This document shows positions 25,394 through 33,082 of a DNA stretch of 64,000 nt, piece by piece (the first letter of the stretch is position 1; each line of letters starts with the position of its first letter). The notes below the pieces were generated by a model. That model saw only the letters and a list, made by a program, of their open reading frames with translations, was not told the DNA's origin and did no database searches. Made by a program: the position numbers and the translations under genes. The stretch comes from Escherichia phage A4, in the sequence record ON286972; one strand, given 5' to 3'.

Positions 25394-26003
25394 CATTAGA
25401 ACAGAGTATGTTAAGTACGAGAAAGCACTACGTGATTTACTAAACATTGCACCGGATTTAATTAGAGCTAAACAAACACTATTTGACAAGTACGGTCCGA
25501 AAAGTGAACTCAAGCTATCAAAAAAGGGAAAACCCACACAATATACAACGCTGTATAATAGATATAGCGTTGGGATTTGTAATATCTATACAGATGAATT
25601 AGTACTGGAATTAACCCAAGACGATGATGAAGAAGCACATGATTTATTTCCTGAATTTGAAGAGTGCATGTTTAGTCCAGGTAATCCAGTGTTTTTAACC
25701 TTAAATGATGGAAGAAAAACGCTAAAAGAATCGTTCATCACATATGATGCCAAAACTAAAACACTAATGGATATTGAATCTGGGTATAAGACTGATCTGA
25801 AATCACTTGAAGATTGTAAGGGTGCATTGTTTCAGATGGGTGTAATCACAGAGGTTACCACTACACCAGAAGAATTATGGCTTATGGTTTCAGTACTGAA
25901 TGATTGGTACAAAGTGAAGAGTCTACGAAATATGTTCATTTATATCAAGCCTGATTGCATCAAGAAAGAAACACTAATTAACAATATGGTAATACCTGAA
26001 TGA
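25386..26003 (+). CDS. hypothetical protein, FQxS-like
   Basis: Motif ALFQMGVITEV. Confidence 0.5.
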   Translation: MTNIRTEYVKYEKALRDLLNIAPDLIRAKQTLFDKYGPKSELKLSKKGKPTQYTTLYNRYSVGICNIYTDELVLELTQDDDEEAHDLFPEFEECMFSPGNPVFLTLNDGRKTLKESFITYDAKTKTLMDIESGYKTDLKSLEDCKGALFQMGVITEVTTTPEELWLMVSVLNDWYKVKSLRNMFIYIKPDCIKKETLINNMVIPE

Positions 26004-26599
26004 AAAAAGATCCCAATGAAGACTTAATCAATTCTTTAAGTACTATCAAAGATTTGTGGTTACGATATCGTGGATTGTATAGTGTTAAAGATACAGAAAA
26101 TAACATACTCCAAAGTCTTAAAATCACGATTCGAATGCAATTCAAAAATGGAATGGCAGTTGATGTTGAGATGAACAAAACTGGAGTTTATGTATATGAT
26201 GGTTCTCGAACTGCAATCTTTATGGCAGAATTCATAGATGAAGACTGTAATCTATATTGTTCATACGACATTGAAAGTGGTGATATCGAAATGTTCGCTA
26301 ATGAACCTATCCTGCTCCGTTTCACTAAATCATGGAATGAAGATTACATTATATATCAAAATGGAGGCTTCTTAAATTCCGATGAGGAACCCATCGATAA
26401 CATAGAAGAAATGGCATTCCAGAGCAGTACTGTTAACGATGATGCATTATCTTATCAAGAAATCCTTGACACAGTGAATGGTTATGATAAAATACAGGCT
26501 GCAATGAAAGAGAACGGTATCTGTTATCTTACAGTACTGGACAAACTCTTCTACGATGAACTGTGTTCGTACCTGAACTGTATTCTCACTGAGGATTGA
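26000..26599 (+). CDS. hypothetical protein, FQxS-motif paralog family
   Basis: Motif MAFQSSTVNDDA. Confidence 0.55.
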   Translation: MKKDPNEDLINSLSTIKDLWLRYRGLYSVKDTENNILQSLKITIRMQFKNGMAVDVEMNKTGVYVYDGSRTAIFMAEFIDEDCNLYCSYDIESGDIEMFANEPILLRFTKSWNEDYIIYQNGGFLNSDEEPIDNIEEMAFQSSTVNDDALSYQEILDTVNGYDKIQAAMKENGICYLTVLDKLFYDELCSYLNCILTED

Positions 26600-27015
26600 T
26601 GATGATTCTATACCATGCAAGTACTGTTAAAATTGACAACTTCTACATTCCTTATGGTGGTTTACATATGGGAGGGAAGCATAGTGCTCTTGAGGCTGCG
26701 TTACGCAAGCTGAGAAGCCCACTGAACGTTGTTGATGCTGACATGGTGTACTTGCATACCTTAGAAGTTGACGTTGATAACGTGCTTCTGTGTGAGGATA
26801 TGGGTAGTGATGACGAATGGCGTTCACTTATTGAGTATTGTGATACTGAAGGTTACGATGCAGTTCAGTACAAGAATGAATACGAGCCGGACAATGTTCC
26901 TAGTTATATGATTTGGGATACATCTAAAGTTCGTATTGTTGAAGTTGATACTATGCATATGGATGAAGCTGAAATGATTATCGAAGATTTTCTTGATGAA
27001 TATGAAGGTGTATAA
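26596..27015 (+). CDS. hypothetical protein (not of the FQxS family)
   Basis: Acidic 139-aa ORF interrupting the array; no family motif. Confidence 0.5.
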   Translation: MMMILYHASTVKIDNFYIPYGGLHMGGKHSALEAALRKLRSPLNVVDADMVYLHTLEVDVDNVLLCEDMGSDDEWRSLIEYCDTEGYDAVQYKNEYEPDNVPSYMIWDTSKVRIVEVDTMHMDEAEMIIEDFLDEYEGV

Positions 27016-27539
27016 TGACTGATCCAATGACAGTACTGGTACGTACTAAGTTACTATTGAAGATTGGTGAGATTTTCACAGATCTTATGCACAATCAAAT
27101 TGATATTACAGAACTAGATATTAAGCAACCGTGGGAAATTACAAGGTTCTCGGCGTTCCACCGATTGTCATATAAAGGTGAAACTGTTCTTGATTTTAAT
27201 CACAAAGCACAATTCCTGGATTATGCCGCGTTGTACCGAAATAATTATTCAGGTTGTATAACCAATAACTTCAAAGAAATAAAAGTACAGATTGAATCAA
27301 TTGAATTTAACGAATTACTATATCCAGAATTTAAGTTAACTGAAGAATCTATGTTTCAGTACTCACTAATTCTAAAAGATCTAGAAACTCTAGAGTACTA
27401 CAGAGAGTTAGTAGATATTTTTATGAATGTTCGTCTTTCAAAAGATATTGTGATATTCTGGTATACAGAGCGTATTACAGAGGAAGTACTTGAAGAATTT
27501 CTCGTAAATATGACAGCTATTAAGGAGAATTTATGTTAG
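27015..27539 (+). CDS. hypothetical protein, FQxS-motif paralog family
   Basis: Motif SMFQYSLILKDLE. Confidence 0.55.
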   Translation: MTDPMTVLVRTKLLLKIGEIFTDLMHNQIDITELDIKQPWEITRFSAFHRLSYKGETVLDFNHKAQFLDYAALYRNNYSGCITNNFKEIKVQIESIEFNELLYPEFKLTEESMFQYSLILKDLETLEYYRELVDIFMNVRLSKDIVIFWYTERITEEVLEEFLVNMTAIKENLC

Positions 27540-27997
27540 ACATTTTAGGAAACATTGATACGGTAAACTTTTTTATTCAAGACGCTATTATCAATATCAC
27601 ATCAAAGCCAATCCAAGTTAGAAGTAACTTTTATAGTGGTGATGGTTATATGGTTGATATTGTTGAAGTTAAGAAAAATGTTTTCCAAATCAATATTCTC
27701 ACCCAAACGAGAACACAGATTTCTCGTATCATCATTAATAAAGATGAAGCCGTCATTCGTTATAATTCAAAATTTATGATGTTCTTTAAAAAGAAAACTG
27801 GTATGTTCAGTACTAATCTCTTTGATGAATCATTTTATTCAACCGATGTGGAATCTACCTTCTTCACACAAAGTACATTTATCAAATTTGATAGTATTGA
27901 GTTCGATTCAAATATCATGTCAGAAACATTACAATGCCTAAAGGTATTACATAATGAATTTACCAACTTTATCGATAGCCGAAACAAGATTAACTAA
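27533..27997 (+). CDS. hypothetical protein, FQxS-like (degenerate)
   Basis: Motif position reads FFTQSTFIKFD. Confidence 0.45.
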   Translation: MLDILGNIDTVNFFIQDAIINITSKPIQVRSNFYSGDGYMVDIVEVKKNVFQINILTQTRTQISRIIINKDEAVIRYNSKFMMFFKKKTGMFSTNLFDESFYSTDVESTFFTQSTFIKFDSIEFDSNIMSETLQCLKVLHNEFTNFIDSRNKIN

Positions 27998-28412
27998 TAT
28001 AAATGAATTAGTTAATGCTATCTTATCATGCAAATTAAAAATTGATACCAAATGTAAGTACAATGGTATTAATTTATACAAATTAAAATATTCACGAATA
28101 CATAATTCAGTAAAATACATTTACGGTACTAGTCAAATCATCTTTGAAACGGTTACAGTGAACAGTAAATTACTTATTGATGTTTATATCAGTAATAAGA
28201 TTAAAAATTCACAAAAAGTGTTGACAGTTTCTTCTGATAATGTTACTATGTTTGATACCAACAATAAGAAGTTAGATATTGATTTAGATGTTATTCTTGA
28301 TGGTGACTTATTCCAGTACGAGTGTATTGGTCTAAATAATCCATTTGATAAATCAGTACTAGTCAATTTAATCAAACATATTAAGGGTATTTTAGATGAA
28401 ACTAACAACTGA
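27954..28412 (+). CDS. hypothetical protein, FQxS-like
   Basis: Motif DLFQYECIGLNNP. Confidence 0.5.
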   Translation: MNLPTLSIAETRLTNINELVNAILSCKLKIDTKCKYNGINLYKLKYSRIHNSVKYIYGTSQIIFETVTVNSKLLIDVYISNKIKNSQKVLTVSSDNVTMFDTNNKKLDIDLDVILDGDLFQYECIGLNNPFDKSVLVNLIKHIKGILDETNN

Positions 28413-28896
28413 TATGAAACTTTGCATTTCTTTGATTATGCGTTCATTCGATGACAAAAGGACAAGTAAAGTTACTATCACCAATGACCATTTACAATGC
28501 AGTACACTCAATAGTACTGTAGTTTTCGGATTACATAGCCTCCGTTTGACGATAGTAAATAATATTGACAATACGGCGATGTGTATTACCCCCTGCCACG
28601 TTCAGGATGAACATGGTGTTTATCTTCACCACATGGGGACTTCGTATTTCATTTTCAATGAAGAAAAGGGAGTACAAAAAGACTTTAACACGTTGTGCGT
28701 AGACGGCGGTGAATTGTTCCAGATGGGAACTTTATATCAGTGTGATTTTACTGATACATCTGAAGTACTTCCATTATTTCTTGATCTCATTAAGAATTTA
28801 GGTTCATTTACTGGTCGCTATAACAAATCATTAAAGGCACAGGCAATTCAAAATATCTCGGAAGCAATAGAATATTACGAAAACGCTGTGTCGTAA
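28396..28896 (+). CDS. hypothetical protein, FQxS-like
   Basis: Motif ELFQMGTLYQCD. Confidence 0.5.
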   Translation: MKLTTDMKLCISLIMRSFDDKRTSKVTITNDHLQCSTLNSTVVFGLHSLRLTIVNNIDNTAMCITPCHVQDEHGVYLHHMGTSYFIFNEEKGVQKDFNTLCVDGGELFQMGTLYQCDFTDTSEVLPLFLDLIKNLGSFTGRYNKSLKAQAIQNISEAIEYYENAVS

Positions 28897-28936
28897 CACC
28901 AGCACATGGATGTGCGATGACGATCAAGGATAGATC

Positions 28937-29410
28937 ATGGAGATTAAAACTGTTGAAAACGGAAAGATTGATGACATTTTAGAGTTGGACGCTTTCAAAG
29001 TGCATGATATAATGTTTAACGTAAGAGACATTATCCAATGCCTTTTCTTGTGCAGCAAGTCAATGTATGAACATTTCCATTGCCCACGTACTAATATTTT
29101 TATACTAACTATCAGTACTGAAAACTCATTTATCATGGGTATTCCAATGAATACAAATGAAGAATATATTGATTGTGTTGTTCGTAATGATCCTTCTATC
29201 ACACCACAGAGTGAAGTGCATAAGAAGAAAAATACATATACTATTAAAGACGATAAAATTATGTTGTGCGTGACCAAGGGTTTTCTACTTGACAACTTCA
29301 TAATCAAAGATAGTTATCATGACTTTAAAGTATCTGAGAAGCAAGTCAATGTAGTTCTATATGCAAGTGATATCGAGAGCCTTACAGTGAAAGATCCAGA
29401 CCTGGAGTAA
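28937..29410 (+). CDS. hypothetical protein
   Basis: ORF-track ORF; Cys/His-containing, no motif recognised. Confidence 0.5.
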   Translation: MEIKTVENGKIDDILELDAFKVHDIMFNVRDIIQCLFLCSKSMYEHFHCPRTNIFILTISTENSFIMGIPMNTNEEYIDCVVRNDPSITPQSEVHKKKNTYTIKDDKIMLCVTKGFLLDNFIIKDSYHDFKVSEKQVNVVLYASDIESLTVKDPDLE

Positions 29411-29412
29411 TT

Positions 29413-29550
29413 ATGGCTAAGAAATCTAAAGTAAACAACTTTGTTGCAAAGCACTGTAATGAGTTTAATAAGGCTCAAGTGCACGTGGACCGCAAGAAAG
29501 CTGCAAAAAATGGAAAAATTAAACACCAGTCGAGATTTTATCTCGACTAA
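29413..29550 (+). CDS. small Lys-rich basic protein (45 aa), not in ORF track
   Basis: ATG 29413 five nt after GGAG; translates MAKKSKVNNFVAKHCNEFNKAQVHVDRKKAAKNGKIKHQSRFYLD; hairpin plus T7 at its stop. Confidence 0.45.
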   Translation: MAKKSKVNNFVAKHCNEFNKAQVHVDRKKAAKNGKIKHQSRFYLD

Positions 29551-29557
29551 TTTTTTT
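29529..29557 (+). terminator. rho-independent terminator
   Basis: Hairpin GTCGAGA-tttta-TCTCGAC followed by TAA and T7. Confidence 0.55.
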
Positions 29558-29567
29558 GAGGTAAAAT

Positions 29568-30214
29568 ATGGTATTCAATTTTGGAATAAATGATTCTAAT
29601 GGTGATTCTTCAAGAAAACATAAAGATAACAATATCTATAATTCATGGTATAATATGTTAAAACGATGCTATTCACCATCATTTCACAAAATTGAACCAT
29701 CGTATATTGATATAACCGTTTGTGATGATTGGAAACATTATTCTAATTACAAACAATGGTTCAAGGAAAATTACATACAAGGATATGAAATTGACAAAGA
29801 TATAGCACATGGATATTCAAAAATATATTCACCAAGAACTTGTTTTTTTGTTCCCAAATTAATTAACAATTGTATTTTAGAAGGTACGAAAAAATATCAA
29901 AATATCCCATTGGTGTATCGTATAAAAATAAAAGTTCAAGTATGATTAATGAATACAAAAAACCATATTCTTCACATATTACACGTTATGGTAAACTAAA
30001 AAATAATGGCTATTATCATACACCTGAAGAAGCACATAAAGTTTGGCAAATGTCAAAAAAAGAATATATAGAAGAACTTATAGATATATACAAAAATGAT
30101 GTTTCTATACAAATCATATCAGGTTTACAAAACATAGTTGATATGTTAGATTATGATATACAAAATAATTTAATCACAAAATCGTTAAAATTTAATATAT
30201 GGTGTTCAAAATGA
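29568..30214 (+). pseudogene. homing-endonuclease-associated protein, frameshifted copy
   Basis: ORFs 29568..29945 and 29870..30214 together align to intact paralog 34334..34948; frame changes at an A6 run near 29889-29894. Confidence 0.5.
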
Positions 30215-31050
30215 TGTTCTTAAACTTCAAAGAGTATTCAGTACTTGATCATATCAAGATTCTATCTGAGAATCCTGAAACATTTGGTGCAGTAAAAACA
30301 GCAAATGGAGAATCTTATGATGTTTATAACATTACAGGACATACTGTTTCTGTAAAAAACAATATCCGTCCTTCGACACTAGATATTAATATTCGTAATA
30401 ATGAAACTTATGAAACTTCACTATCATACGAATATGATTCAGATCTTAAGTCTGAAATATTCAACACACCATCAGTCCATTATTACAAGTCAGAAGATAC
30501 AATTCGTTACCGAGATACCACGATTAATGATATAGTTTTTAATCGTAGAATTAATGCCAGTGGTATAGTTTCAGTTCGTAGTACTGATAGATTTGCAAAA
30601 TATACTGTCGAAAATAATGTACGATCATTTGAAACAACTTTCCGTCTAACACAAGGTACAGAAGAAAGCAACATCACACTCCAAGAACGTTTGTCATCAG
30701 ACGGGATTATTATGCGTAGTGTTGCTTTTTTCAGATATAACACCGAAGATGGGCGTCCAGTGATGTGTGATTTGGATATCACTCGTACAGGTGATAAAAC
30801 AATCGCCACTATAACCTCTGGATACCGACATTCGTTTACATTAGAACTGGATGTACCTGATGCATCATTACTTGGTATTTTTGATCCGCTGGCAGCATTT
30901 CAAGCAGAGTTAGTGCTGAACCCTAAGCAGTACGAGATTCTTGATATCTTACGTAAAGGCATAGTTAATAAGTTGAAAACTTACCAACAGTTAGGTGGTA
31001 AGATGAGTATAGTTAATACTATTCTCGAAAATATTGAAAGAGTAAGTTAA
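30199..31050 (+). CDS. hypothetical protein
   Basis: 283-aa ORF rich in T/S/N/R; no motif recognised. Confidence 0.5.
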   Translation: MVFKMMFLNFKEYSVLDHIKILSENPETFGAVKTANGESYDVYNITGHTVSVKNNIRPSTLDINIRNNETYETSLSYEYDSDLKSEIFNTPSVHYYKSEDTIRYRDTTINDIVFNRRINASGIVSVRSTDRFAKYTVENNVRSFETTFRLTQGTEESNITLQERLSSDGIIMRSVAFFRYNTEDGRPVMCDLDITRTGDKTIATITSGYRHSFTLELDVPDASLLGIFDPLAAFQAELVLNPKQYEILDILRKGIVNKLKTYQQLGGKMSIVNTILENIERVS

Positions 31051-31070
31051 TACATGGAGATAGATTTAGT

Positions 31071-31373
31071 ATGGATACTAAATTTGAAATTAAATTCTTG
31101 ACACAACCATATACTCCTAATACTGGGAAACGTTTTATTCCTGAAGGAGCAGTAGAGGTTGTTCACCCTGATGGTACTAAATTGTATTTGAATCCATGTT
31201 CATATGAGCGTGCTGTTGAAATGCTTATCATGAACTGCAAGCACAATACAAAGACAGAGGACAGTAAGTACATCAGTTATCTATATAGCGAGCACATCCT
31301 CGACTTCCAAGACGAGAATATGTTCATTCTTGCAATTCAAGACTTTGAAAATTGGATTGAAAATATTGTCTAA
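31071..31373 (+). CDS. hypothetical protein
   Basis: ORF-track ORF. Confidence 0.45.
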   Translation: MDTKFEIKFLTQPYTPNTGKRFIPEGAVEVVHPDGTKLYLNPCSYERAVEMLIMNCKHNTKTEDSKYISYLYSEHILDFQDENMFILAIQDFENWIENIV

Positions 31374-31439
31374 AATCATCTGGACATATGACAATTCAAT
31401 GATATAATGTTCGCATCTTTTTGATAAACGGAGATAAAG

Positions 31440-31826
31440 ATGAATACAAGTTCTATTCTAAAAGCAATTGGTGGTGTACTTCTCATCGAAGTACAAGGTG
31501 AACCAAAACTATGTTGTTTAGAAGATATGAAACAAACTAAATTCTTTGGTACTGGTCAGATTTTCAATGCAATTCGCGTTTTGAATGATAAAACAGTAGG
31601 TGACTACGGTCGTGCATGGCCTAACTATCGCAATGACGAAGGTGAAATCAGTACTGACTGGAAAACAATTGAAGCTGTTCGTCAGAATTGTGATTCAGAT
31701 TGGGATTTCATTGTTGAAGTGTGTAATCAACTTCAAGAAGAAGTACCAGAGATTGTTGAACGTAAAGAAGTACTATCACAGCTAGAGAAGTTCCGTCACG
31801 GAACACTACAATACGAAGTACTGTAA
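31440..31826 (+). CDS. hypothetical protein
   Basis: ORF-track ORF with GGAG upstream. Confidence 0.5.
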   Translation: MNTSSILKAIGGVLLIEVQGEPKLCCLEDMKQTKFFGTGQIFNAIRVLNDKTVGDYGRAWPNYRNDEGEISTDWKTIEAVRQNCDSDWDFIVEVCNQLQEEVPEIVERKEVLSQLEKFRHGTLQYEVL

Positions 31827-31880
31827 TATCTCCGATTATTAAAACAAACTAATTAAACATTATATAAAAAGGAATTTAAA

Positions 31881-32189
31881 ATGGAAGACAACGGAATGAA
31901 ATTTGATATGTTTGAAGGTGTACCAGAGTTTGATTTCAACAAGCTTGAAAATGGCGAAGAAGCAGAACTCGTAAGTGTTACCTTAAAATCGGATACTAAG
32001 AAGAAATACTCTTCAGCAGTTCGTGCTCGTTCACAAGAAGAATATGAAACGTTCATTGAAAGTATTCATTATGAAACAATGACTCGTGTAGATGGAAGTA
32101 CTTATGAAGTTCGCGTTACAGTACTGAAACCTGAAGTTAATCCTCTTGAGAATTTGAAACCAGTCTACTGCTGGGGAACCTCAAACTAA
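31881..32189 (+). CDS. hypothetical protein
   Basis: ORF-track ORF with AGGAA upstream. Confidence 0.5.
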   Translation: MEDNGMKFDMFEGVPEFDFNKLENGEEAELVSVTLKSDTKKKYSSAVRARSQEEYETFIESIHYETMTRVDGSTYEVRVTVLKPEVNPLENLKPVYCWGTSN

Positions 32190-32202
32190 TACATAATAAA
32201 AA

Positions 32203-32229
32203 AGGTCGGGAATATTCTCGGCCTTTTTG
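32203..32229 (+). terminator. rho-independent terminator
   Basis: GC stem around palindrome GAATATTC followed by T5. Confidence 0.45.
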
Positions 32230-32242
32230 TCTATGAGGCACT

Positions 32243-33082
32243 ATGAAATTAAATTTTATTATCAACTTTAATGTTAAAGAAACCGATCATTACGCATCAG
32301 AAGATGACCGTGTTGCACCAGCTTCGTCTGAATACATCAGAAATGAAAATGTCCATATGCATGAAAATTATTTCGACTTTGGTAATTTTATTATCTACCG
32401 TGGATTTAAGGATGTTGTATTCCGTTCCAGATATGAAGACTTTGAACATGCACTCATTGATGTACCGGATGAATTAGTATTCCAGTTCATGTTACTTGGT
32501 ATTAAAGATTATGACTTTATAGTTTATAACCATTATACTAAGCGTATTATGATTGGTAATGATTCATATGATCTTACTTATTATTCCAGTACTGATGAAG
32601 ATTTAGAAAATATTAAACGCCGTTCTGGTGGTATACGTAATTGTTCATCTTCAAACTCCAGTAGAATGAGTGAAAGGTTTTTTGATTTCAAAAATAGCAA
32701 TAATAACGACTGTGAAGACGCGGACAATACTGAACATGTAATGTTTGAAATTGACCACAATAATGGATATAATGACTTCCTTAACGTTCTGAAGCCTTAT
32801 ATCAATCATAAATTCGTCAAAGATGTAAATCTGGTGGCACGTGACTTACAGTACAGTGATCGTACTGGTGGTATGCCTGTACCAATGGATCGTGTATGTA
32901 CGAACAATACAGTATTCAATGTCCCACGAGAAGATGTTGCATTTGTATTTCTGGCATTTTTGAATTCAGATGCACTATGGGACGATAATGAAAGACAATT
33001 TAGTTCAAGACATATTGAAATAATTCGTCAAAATACATTACTACTGTGGAAGAAATTTACTGAAAATACCCAGGACAAATAA
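32243..33082 (+). CDS. hypothetical protein
   Basis: 279-aa ORF; weak FQxS-like stretch ELVFQFMLLG. Confidence 0.5.
   Translation: MKLNFIINFNVKETDHYASEDDRVAPASSEYIRNENVHMHENYFDFGNFIIYRGFKDVVFRSRYEDFEHALIDVPDELVFQFMLLGIKDYDFIVYNHYTKRIMIGNDSYDLTYYSSTDEDLENIKRRSGGIRNCSSSNSSRMSERFFDFKNSNNNDCEDADNTEHVMFEIDHNNGYNDFLNVLKPYINHKFVKDVNLVARDLQYSDRTGGMPVPMDRVCTNNTVFNVPREDVAFVFLAFLNSDALWDDNERQFSSRHIEIIRQNTLLLWKKFTENTQDK

What the first reader, a model, noticed from the sequence alone, without database searches (positions are those of the whole stretch)
29413..29550. Unannotated 45-aa Lys-rich ORF with its own RBS and terminator
ATG at 29413 sits five nt after GGAG and translates to MAKKSKVNNFVAKHCNEFNKAQVHVDRKKAAKNGKIKHQSRFYLD. 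Its stop is embedded in a hairpin plus T7 terminator. It is below the ORF-track size cutoff and could be a small nucleic-acid-binding or ribosome-associated protein.
Basis: seen in the sequence. Interest (0 to 1): 0.35.

Follow-up and report, generated by a model that had tools for sequence, protein, structure and literature searches.

The report
Phage gene resembling ribosome-rescue factor
The 45-residue ORF is a real, strongly conserved phage gene of the uncharacterised family DUF7230, and because bacterial members of that family are built like the known ribosome-rescue factors ArfA and BrfA, it is probably a phage-made factor that frees ribosomes stuck on broken messenger RNAs.

Summary
In detail: GGAG, 5 nt, then ATG at 29413; a 45-aa ORF; TAA straddling the 3' edge of a 9-bp hairpin followed by T7.

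**The gene is real.**
- It matches Pfam DUF7230 at E = 3.7e-18.
- dN/dS against related jumbo phages is 0.02-0.19.
- Homologues occur in roughly 1,000-2,000 phage records, including T-even phages next to arn.
- It is not truly unannotated: gene callers call this exact protein, and 121Q lists it as gp410.

**The functional lead comes from cellular relatives.**
- In 79 of 80 Acinetobacter species the chromosomal homologue carries a covarying terminator hairpin inside the ORF, directly after the conserved core (KHK in most). The stop codon lies 13-54 nt beyond it.
- This non-stop mRNA design is otherwise known from the rescue factors arfA and brfA.
- The same layout recurs, with unrelated stems, on a conjugative element and on a viral contig.

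**Homology to known rescue factors is not detectable.** hhalign against ArfA gives about 0.1% probability, and a profile search of the PDB finds nothing.

Best reading (confidence about 0.5): a phage-encoded, constitutively made analogue of ArfA/BrfA. The function is inferred, not shown.

The parts
29404..29407 (+). Shine-Dalgarno-like GGAG, 5 nt upstream of the ATG. The stop codon of the upstream ORF (29408-29410) lies in the spacer, so translational coupling is possible.
   Evidence: Read directly from the sequence and the ORF table.
29413..29550 (+). 45-aa ORF (stop included), a member of Pfam DUF7230.
   Evidence: dN/dS is 0.02-0.19. The identical protein is called on 11 public contigs.
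29428..29541 (+). Conserved DUF7230 core (residues 6-43): N-N-F-V-A-K-H...F-N-K-A-x-V-H-x-D-R-K-K...K-x-G-K-x-K-H.
   Evidence: Pfam match to residues 6-43. Invariant and near-invariant columns in alignments A1 and A6.
29528..29548 (+). 9-bp stem, 3-nt loop hairpin that encodes the last residues (SRFYLD). It starts directly after the conserved ...KHQ.
   Evidence: The same layout occurs with a different stem in RaK2-like phages (L092) and with a near-identical stem in 121Q.
29548..29550 (+). Stop codon TAA. Its T is the last paired base of the stem.
29551..29557 (+). T7 run completing an intrinsic-terminator-like site. A transcript ending in this run would still contain the stop codon.
   Evidence: The position of the 3' end is inferred from established knowledge of intrinsic terminators.

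Best explanation
The ORF is a real phage gene encoding a 45-residue basic peptide of family DUF7230. The most likely function is an alternative ribosome-rescue factor that works like ArfA and BrfA. In that model the peptide binds ribosomes stalled at the 3' end of truncated (non-stop) mRNAs, its Lys/Arg/His-rich C-terminal half occupies the empty mRNA channel, and its conserved N-terminal half helps a class-I release factor hydrolyse the peptidyl-tRNA, freeing the ribosome.

Shown here: the gene, its conservation, its family membership and the terminator. Also shown: bacterial relatives (Acinetobacter chromosomes, one conjugative-element locus) and one viral contig place an intrinsic terminator inside the ORF, directly after the conserved core, so their mRNA should lack a stop codon.

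Inferred: that this non-stop design means regulation by trans-translation and a rescue function, as it does for arfA and brfA, and that the phage protein keeps the same biochemical activity.

In this phage, as in most phages, the ORF ends at a normal stop codon, here at the 3' edge of the terminator stem. The peptide would then be made constitutively rather than only when tmRNA fails. That would plausibly recycle ribosomes stalled on mRNAs cut during infection by phage or host nucleases.
For: 1. Family and constraint. Pfam DUF7230 matches at E = 3.7e-18. There are 94 representatives and 880 proteins in the family, nearly all 40-70 aa. dN/dS is 0.02-0.19. The 33-residue core is 64% identical (21 of 33, counted by eye) to the Acinetobacter chromosomal protein P0291 (sequences).

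2. Non-stop design in cellular relatives. In 79 of 80 Acinetobacter species a hairpin of -11 to -23 kcal/mol with a T-rich tail starts within 5 nt of the end of the conserved core (KHK in most), inside the ORF, and the stop codon is 13-54 nt beyond it. The stem is under RNA-level selection: 97.5% of cells are paired against 42-73% in slid controls, the covariation score is 0.187 against 0.044 or less, and there are compensatory changes at three pairs, while the encoded residues switch between LP and RP. The tail beyond the hairpin is variable in length and hydrophobic, as in ArfA (PMC8012679).

3. The same layout with unrelated stems occurs at a locus next to F-type tra genes (L150) and on a 107-kb viral contig (L100).

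4. Precedent. arfA and brfA are the described cases of this design, and both encode RF2-dependent rescue factors (PMC8012679, PMC6881298, PMC10107115). Mature ArfA has 52-55 aa (PMC6299226). The predicted non-stop Acinetobacter product has about 57 aa.

5. The Acinetobacter gene sits in chromosomal, non-prophage context. Three UniRef entries name it 'Ribosome alternative rescue factor ArfA'. No ArfA, ArfB or RQC was found in 188 A. baumannii genomes (PMC8522692).

6. Canonical ArfA-like ORFs also occur in a few large phages, two of them annotated as such, so phage-borne rescue factors have precedent in annotation.

7. In Chester-like vibriophages the N-terminal half of the domain is fused to a 3'-5' exoribonuclease domain, which fits an RNA or ribosome context.

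8. In T-even phages the gene lies in the early motA-asiA region.
Against: There is no experimental evidence for any member of the family. Sequence homology to ArfA is not detectable: 0 of 85 members hit PF03889, hhalign gives about 0.1% probability even with a diversified ArfA alignment, and the family profile hits nothing in the PDB, which holds ArfA and BrfA. The ArfA KGKGS motif is absent. The window ORF itself is not a non-stop gene, and 49 of 56 phage loci have no hairpin at all, so the key argument is transferred from cellular relatives. A. baumannii, the species reported to lack back-up systems, was not seen among named carriers. In A. portensis the hairpin could also act as a bidirectional terminator for the convergent ptsP-like gene. 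E. coli hosts already have ArfA and ArfB, so the benefit to the phage is conjectural. The gene is disrupted in at least two related phage records, so it is dispensable at least in some settings. The AlphaFold model has low confidence (pLDDT 66) and is uninformative.
Confidence: 0.5

Rival explanations
1. The peptide binds the ribosome, for example in the mRNA channel or decoding centre, but does not rescue it. It might act as a translation inhibitor, a host shut-off factor, a hibernation- or protection-type factor, or a competitor that keeps tmRNA-SmpB from tagging products.
For: The composition and size are the same as for channel-binding tails, and the core is extremely conserved across very distant phages, as expected for a conserved host target. 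The gene lies in the early region in T-even phages. A non-stop design in cellular relatives would also suit any factor meant to appear only when trans-translation fails.
Against: The only described genes with this design are rescue factors (PMC8012679, PMC6881298). The whole core, not just the basic tail, is 64% identical (counted by eye) between the phage protein and a chromosomal Acinetobacter gene (sequences), which argues for one shared activity. A chromosomal gene kept in at least 80 species is an unlikely toxin-like inhibitor.
Confidence: 0.15
2. The peptide is a generic small basic nucleic-acid-binding protein, such as a DNA- or RNA-coating protein or an RNA chaperone, with no specific link to ribosomes.
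For: It is Lys-rich with a predicted short-helix architecture. The fusion partner in vibriophages belongs to an exonuclease family often annotated as a DNA exonuclease. Several members carry Zn-ribbon-like extensions (L097-type).
Against: Generic charge-driven binders are not usually conserved residue by residue (N, V-A-K-H, F-N-K, D-R-K-K and K-H are invariant or nearly so). This reading does not explain the in-ORF terminator of cellular members.
Confidence: 0.12
3. The peptide is an anti-defence or host-takeover protein aimed at another target, such as a restriction or abortive-infection component, as suggested by its position next to arn in T-even phages.
For: In T-even phages the ORF overlaps the start of arn (the McrBC inhibitor) and sits among early takeover genes.
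Against: The arn neighbourhood is specific to that lineage. In the window and its relatives the neighbours are unrelated hypothetical proteins. There is no PADLOC hit. Chromosomal Acinetobacter homologues in non-prophage context with a non-stop design do not fit an anti-defence role.
Confidence: 0.08
4. The ORF is a chance reading frame over an operon terminator and is not expressed as a protein.
For: It is short, and its last six codons are dictated by the hairpin.
Against: The Pfam match is E = 3.7e-18, dN/dS is 0.02-0.19, and there are homologues in more than 1,000 phage records and at least 80 Acinetobacter species.
Confidence: 0.02

Closest known systems
Pfam DUF7230 (PF23876) / phrog_1359
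   Same: The ORF is a full-length member: 65.8 bits against a cut-off of 27, with residues 6-43 matching profile positions 2-39 of 42. It has the same motif set as 880 other proteins.
   Different: Nothing differs; this is its family. The family has no assigned function, and no paper mentioning it was found.
ArfA (YhdL, PF03889), the RF2-dependent alternative ribosome-rescue factor of beta- and gamma-proteobacteria
   Same: Both are small: mature ArfA has 52-55 aa. Both have a basic Lys/Arg/Gly/His-rich C-terminal half ending in K-H. Cellular DUF7230 genes share the stem-loop or terminator inside the ORF that yields a non-stop mRNA, and the variable hydrophobic tail beyond it. Both families occur in gamma-proteobacteria and their phages. 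Some databases already label Acinetobacter DUF7230 proteins 'ArfA'.
   Different: No detectable sequence homology (HMM, hhalign and PDB profile searches are all negative). The KGKGS motif is absent. The window gene has a stop codon within the terminated transcript, so it is not a non-stop gene. Dependence on RF2 is untested.
BrfA (YqkK) of Bacillus subtilis
   Same: brfA has a rho-independent terminator inside the coding region, so the protein is made from non-stop mRNA. This is the same design as the Acinetobacter, L150 and L100 DUF7230 genes. BrfA is also unrelated in sequence to ArfA yet works the same way, which is a precedent for convergent families.
   Different: No sequence similarity: BrfA is in the PDB and was not hit by the profile. 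BrfA is found in Gram-positive bacteria and has N-terminal helices with no counterpart here.
ArfT of Francisella tularensis
   Same: It is a 40-aa basic peptide that recruits RF1 or RF2. Like most phage DUF7230 genes, it is made from an ordinary stop-containing mRNA and is not regulated as ArfA is.
   Different: ArfT carries a KKGGSTNKK motif and was linked to a KGG-repeat-type family (PMC6514570). DUF7230 has neither feature.

Membership tests
Pfam DUF7230 (PF23876) | Score above the curated gathering threshold over most of the model | tested here: met
   65.8 bits against a cut-off of 27, E = 3.7e-18, residues 6-43 on profile positions 2-39 of 42. All 85 aligned relatives also match.
Pfam DUF7230 (PF23876) | Conserved motif N-x-V-A-K-H ... 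F-N-K-A-x-V ... D-R-K-K ... K-x-G-x-x-K-H-K | tested here: met
   The window protein has NNFVAKH...FNKAQVHVDRKK...KNGKIKHQ. The invariant and near-invariant columns are listed.
ArfA (PF03889) | Detectable sequence or profile similarity to the ArfA family | tested here: not met
   0 of 85 members hit PF03889 at E <= 10. hhalign probability is 0.08-0.12% with enterobacterial and with diversified ArfA alignments. The profile search of the PDB finds no hit.
ArfA (PF03889) | KGKGS motif in the tail that binds the mRNA channel | tested here: not met
   The window has KKAAKNGKIKHQ and Acinetobacter has KKDAKRGYSKHKKG. These are basic and contain Gly, but they are not KGKGS.
ArfA (PF03889) | Made from a non-stop mRNA created by a stem-loop inside the ORF | tested here: not met
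   In the window gene the TAA lies at the 3' edge of the stem, before the T-run, so a terminated transcript keeps the stop codon. The feature is met by cellular relatives: 79 of 80 Acinetobacter loci, plus L150 and L100. Actual 3' ends were not measured.
ArfA (PF03889) | [quoted passage not shown] | not testable with these tools
   This needs biochemistry or cryo-EM. The AlphaFold monomer model has low confidence (pLDDT 66).
BrfA | Sequence similarity to B. subtilis BrfA | tested here: not met
   The family profile finds no PDB chain at E <= 10. PMC6881298 reports a cryo-EM structure of the BrfA-RF2-ribosome complex, so BrfA should be among the PDB chains searched.
BrfA | Rho-independent terminator inside the coding region | tested here: not met
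   Not met for the window gene, where the stop precedes the T-run. Met for the Acinetobacter, L150 and L100 relatives.
ArfT | KKGGSTNKK-type C-terminal motif and KGG-repeat family membership | tested here: not met
   The motif is absent by inspection of the window protein and alignment A1. The ArfT description comes from PMC6299226 and PMC6514570. The ArfT sequence itself was not available for alignment.
Intrinsic (rho-independent) terminator | G+C-containing hairpin followed directly by a U-run, conserved in position | tested here: met
   9-bp stem with 4 G-C pairs, 3-nt loop and T7 run. z = -3.3. The position is conserved in 121Q, TH47 and RaK2, with a different stem in RaK2. Termination activity was not measured.

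The most novel reading that the evidence does not exclude
DUF7230 is a previously unrecognised family of release-factor-dependent ribosome-rescue factors, alongside ArfA, ArfT and BrfA, and its main reservoir is large lytic phages. It occurs in more than 1,000 genomes, including T-even, KVP40-like, rV5-like and jumbo phages. On this reading, phages express a constitutive form with a stop codon to recycle ribosomes stalled on mRNAs that are cut during infection. Acinetobacter, some plasmids and some phages carry the tmRNA-controlled non-stop form.
Probability: 0.4. Interest if true: 0.8.

Novelty: new variant of a known kind. Interest (0 to 1): 0.6.

Why it matters
If the inference holds, ribosome rescue becomes a process that phages routinely supply for themselves, including the classic T-even phages. 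That would add a new class to the short list of alternative rescue factors. It would give a candidate back-up system for Acinetobacter, a genus in which the pathogen A. baumannii was reported to have none, which bears on trans-translation inhibitors as antibiotics. It would also give a function to a small ORF present in over a thousand sequenced phage genomes. The hypothesis can be tested directly with a synthetic 45-residue peptide. If it fails, the ORF remains an ordinary conserved phage gene of unknown function.

Tried and rejected
1. Homology to ArfA. This was prompted by an eye-level resemblance (N-x-[IV]...D...Q...K-K...K-H). It was rejected by the Pfam scan of 85 members, by hhalign with two ArfA alignments in local and global modes, and by single-sequence and profile searches of the PDB. 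The Ralstonia phage RsoM2USA ORF (MKNVVAKDL...KGKGSFRRGKKGKH) looks intermediate by eye, but adding it did not raise the score.

2. Ribosomal-protein or SmpB/ArfB-tail homology. The profile finds no PDB hit.

3. ArfT/KGG-repeat membership. The motif is absent.

4. NCBIfam and PADLOC return no hits.

5. The word-indexed protein search with the single 45-aa query found only one near-identical protein. The exhaustive search and a profile were needed.

6. The search for related loci failed with the full alignment and with the single protein. Narrower alignments worked.

7. The structure prediction had low confidence, so no fold search was run.

8. Rfam gives only a sub-threshold sraA match on the minus strand (23.8 bits against a gathering score of 56), treated as chance.

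9. The idea that the window gene is itself non-stop was rejected from the sequence, because TAA precedes the T-run. A variant in which 3' trimming to the stem base removes the AA of the stop codon cannot be tested here and is given little weight.

10. Literature searches for DUF7230, an Acinetobacter rescue factor or a phage-encoded ArfA found nothing specific.

11. Whether A. baumannii carries the gene could not be settled.

Full report
**Observation.** The sequence is as described.
- GGAG lies at 29404-29407. The 5-nt spacer TAATT contains the stop codon of the upstream ORF (28937-29410). ATG is at 29413.
- The ORF 29413-29550 encodes MAKKSKVNNFVAKHCNEFNKAQVHVDRKKAAKNGKIKHQSRFYLD.
- A 9-bp stem with a 3-nt loop (AGTCGAGAT-TTT-ATCTCGACT) spans 29528-29548.
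- The stop codon TAA is at 29548-29550, and its T is the last paired base. Seven T's follow at 29551-29557.
- This is the best terminator-like site on the + strand in 26000-33000. It folds at -13.3 kcal/mol with z = -3.3, and none of 200 shuffles folds as well.

**The ORF is a real gene.**
- It matches the curated Pfam family DUF7230 (PF23876) at 65.8 bits against a cut-off of 27, E = 3.7e-18. It also matches phrog_1359.
- The window belongs to a relative of the Asteriusvirus jumbo phages 121Q and PBECO4, at about 80% DNA identity.
- 121Q annotates the homologue as gp410, a hypothetical protein.
- The identical 45-aa protein is called as a gene on 11 public contigs, three of them about 350 kb long.
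- Against 121Q, TH47 and RaK2 the gene shows dN/dS of 0.02-0.19 with near-saturated synonymous sites.

**Distribution.**
- tblastn finds the family in 954 phage records with the window protein.
- It finds 1,197 records with the T-even-type homologue.
- Carriers include Straboviridae (where the gene sits between arn.1 and arn in the early motA-asiA region and overlaps the arn start), KVP40-like and other vibriophages, rV5-like phages, and jumbo phages of Escherichia, Klebsiella and Serratia.
- An exhaustive HMMER search gives 94 cluster representatives, nearly all 40-70 aa. A profile search gives 880 proteins.
- The conserved core is N-x-V-A-K-H-x-x-x-F-N-K-A-x-V-x-x-D-R-K-K-x-x-K-x-G-x-x-K-H-K.

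**Cellular relatives give the functional lead.**
- The profile search showed chromosomal Acinetobacter members of 59-68 aa. Three carry the UniRef name 'Ribosome alternative rescue factor ArfA'.
- In A. portensis the gene lies between a catalase gene and ptsP/NUDIX genes, not in a prophage.
- A strong terminator-like hairpin lies inside that ORF, directly after the conserved KHK. The stop codon is further downstream.
- A scan of species-representative genomes returned 124 matches, of which the best 80 were kept. All but one are labelled Acinetobacter; the exception is a MAG labelled Bacteroidaceae, probably mis-binned.
- In 79 of those 80 loci a hairpin of -11 to -23 kcal/mol with a T-rich tail starts within 5 nt of the end of the core, inside the ORF. 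The stop codon is 13-54 nt beyond the hairpin.
- On an ungapped alignment of 76 distinct sequences, 97.5% of stem cells are paired, against 42-73% when partners are slid. The covariation score is 0.187, against 0.044 or less for the slid controls.
- Three stem positions show compensatory double changes: CG 34 / AU 31 / GU 11; GC 63 / UA 7 / UG 6; AU 55 / CG 5. The encoded residues switch between LP and RP at the same time.
- The peptide tail beyond the hairpin is variable in length and hydrophobic. Selection therefore acts on the RNA structure, not on the tail.
- A transcript ended by this terminator has no stop codon.
- The same layout, with unrelated stems, occurs at a locus next to F-type tra genes (L150) and on a 107-kb viral contig (L100).

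**Why this points to ribosome rescue.**
- arfA contains a stem-loop that causes premature termination or RNase III cleavage. ArfA is therefore made from non-stop mRNA and is repressed by trans-translation, and its hydrophobic C-terminal tail makes the full-length protein unstable (PMC8012679, PMC10107115).
- brfA has a rho-independent terminator inside its coding region, with the same consequence (PMC6881298).
- Both encode small basic peptides that occupy the empty mRNA channel and recruit RF2.
- Mature ArfA has 52-55 aa (PMC6299226). The predicted non-stop Acinetobacter product has about 57 aa.
- No ArfA, ArfB or RQC was found in 188 A. baumannii genomes (PMC8522692). I could not show that A. 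baumannii itself carries DUF7230.

**The phage genes differ.**
- Of 56 phage loci analysed, 49 have an ordinary stop codon shortly after the core (within about 10 residues in most) and no strong hairpin.
- Six loci, including the window, 121Q and RaK2, have a hairpin with the stop codon inside it or at its 3' edge. In the window, 121Q and RaK2 the TAA straddles the 3' stem edge, and the stem sequence differs between Asteriusvirus and RaK2-like phages.
- One locus (L100) has the non-stop layout.
- In the window the terminated transcript should keep its stop codon. The phage peptide thus corresponds to the 'already truncated' active part and would be made regardless of tmRNA activity.

**Membership tests.**
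- Homology to ArfA is not detectable. None of the 85 members hits PF03889.
- hhalign gives about 0.1% probability with an enterobacterial ArfA alignment and with one diversified by phage and Pseudomonas ArfA-like sequences.
- Neither the single sequence nor the family profile hits any PDB chain at a meaningful E-value, although ArfA, BrfA and the ribosomal proteins are in the PDB.
- The ArfT motif is absent (PMC6299226, PMC6514570).
- DUF7230 is therefore filed as its own family. It may work like ArfA and BrfA, but it is not a member of either.

**Other evidence.**
- Canonical ArfA-like ORFs exist in a few large phages, and two are annotated as ArfA.
- In Chester-like vibriophages the N-terminal half of DUF7230 is fused to an Rv2179c-like 3'-5' exoribonuclease domain.
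- The AlphaFold model has low confidence (pLDDT 66) with two short helices, as expected for a peptide that folds on its target.
- NCBIfam, PADLOC and Rfam give nothing useful.
- No paper on DUF7230, or on a rescue factor of this kind in Acinetobacter or phages, was found in the held library.

**Verdict.**
- The gene and its terminator are real and conserved.
- The best-supported mechanism is a phage-encoded analogue of the RF-dependent rescue factors, at a confidence of about 0.5.
- The chain of inference has three links. Family membership is shown. The non-stop design in cellular relatives is shown at the sequence and covariation level. Rescue function is inferred by analogy with the two described precedents, and I found no other class of gene described with this design.
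- The rivals are another ribosome-directed activity, generic nucleic-acid binding, and an anti-defence role. None is excluded.
- The claim can be tested directly with a synthetic peptide.

Noticed in passing
window 29568-30214 (+): Two overlapping ORFs (125 aa and 114 aa) match consecutive parts of one HNH-endonuclease profile (phrog_953 positions 198-316 and 310-402 of 420). They look like a frameshifted, N-terminally truncated homing-endonuclease remnant inserted right after the terminator. The stretch is absent from 121Q and from the ~350-kb contigs that encode the identical or 98%-identical 45-aa protein (L152, L156).
   Followed up: partly
L139 (Salmonella phage Arash 57934-58158), L140 (Pseudomonas phage pf16), L144 (Ralstonia phage RsoM2USA): Canonical ArfA-like ORFs in large phages are mis-annotated or unannotated. 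In Arash the ORF is called 'ribosomal protein L2'. In pf16 and RsoM2USA nothing is annotated on that strand. The RsoM2USA ORF (MKNVVAKDL...KKKKGKGSFRRGKKGKH) looks by eye like a mix of DUF7230 and ArfA motifs.
   Followed up: partly
L099, L112, L113 (Chester-like vibriophage contigs): The N-terminal half of the DUF7230 domain, without the basic K-H-K tail, is fused to an Rv2179c-like 3'-5' exoribonuclease domain (PF16473, E = 4.5e-27). The records annotate the protein as a putative exodeoxyribonuclease.
   Followed up: partly
L150 3001-3171: A DUF7230 gene with a G+C-rich in-ORF terminator (AAGCCCGG...CCGGGCTT followed by CTTCTTTT) lies next to F-type conjugation genes (TraU, TrbC, a TraF-like peptidase). 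The non-stop form therefore also travels on conjugative elements.
   Followed up: partly
L147 (Salmonella phage SD-6_S16) and L146 (Escherichia phage CMSTMSU): The DUF7230 gene is disrupted in both records: a short deletion removes the VAKH motif in SD-6_S16, and there is a frameshift in CMSTMSU. Either the gene is dispensable or these are sequencing errors. CMSTMSU is flagged UNVERIFIED_ORG.
   Followed up: no
L097, L098, L102-L109 (IMG/VR contigs): A subgroup carries a C-terminal extension of about 44 residues with CPNC...CPN, which looks like a zinc ribbon, after the DUF7230 core.
   Followed up: no
L003 4131-4199 (A. portensis): The in-ORF terminator is symmetric, with an A-run before the stem and a T-run after it. 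The convergent ptsP-like gene ends 4 nt after the DUF7230 stop codon, so the hairpin may terminate transcription from both directions.
   Followed up: no
P0002: The top hit of the exhaustive search is an 816-aa tandem-repeat translation at 23% identity with 13 matched stretches. Its score is inflated by summing the repeats, and it is not a family member.
   Followed up: yes
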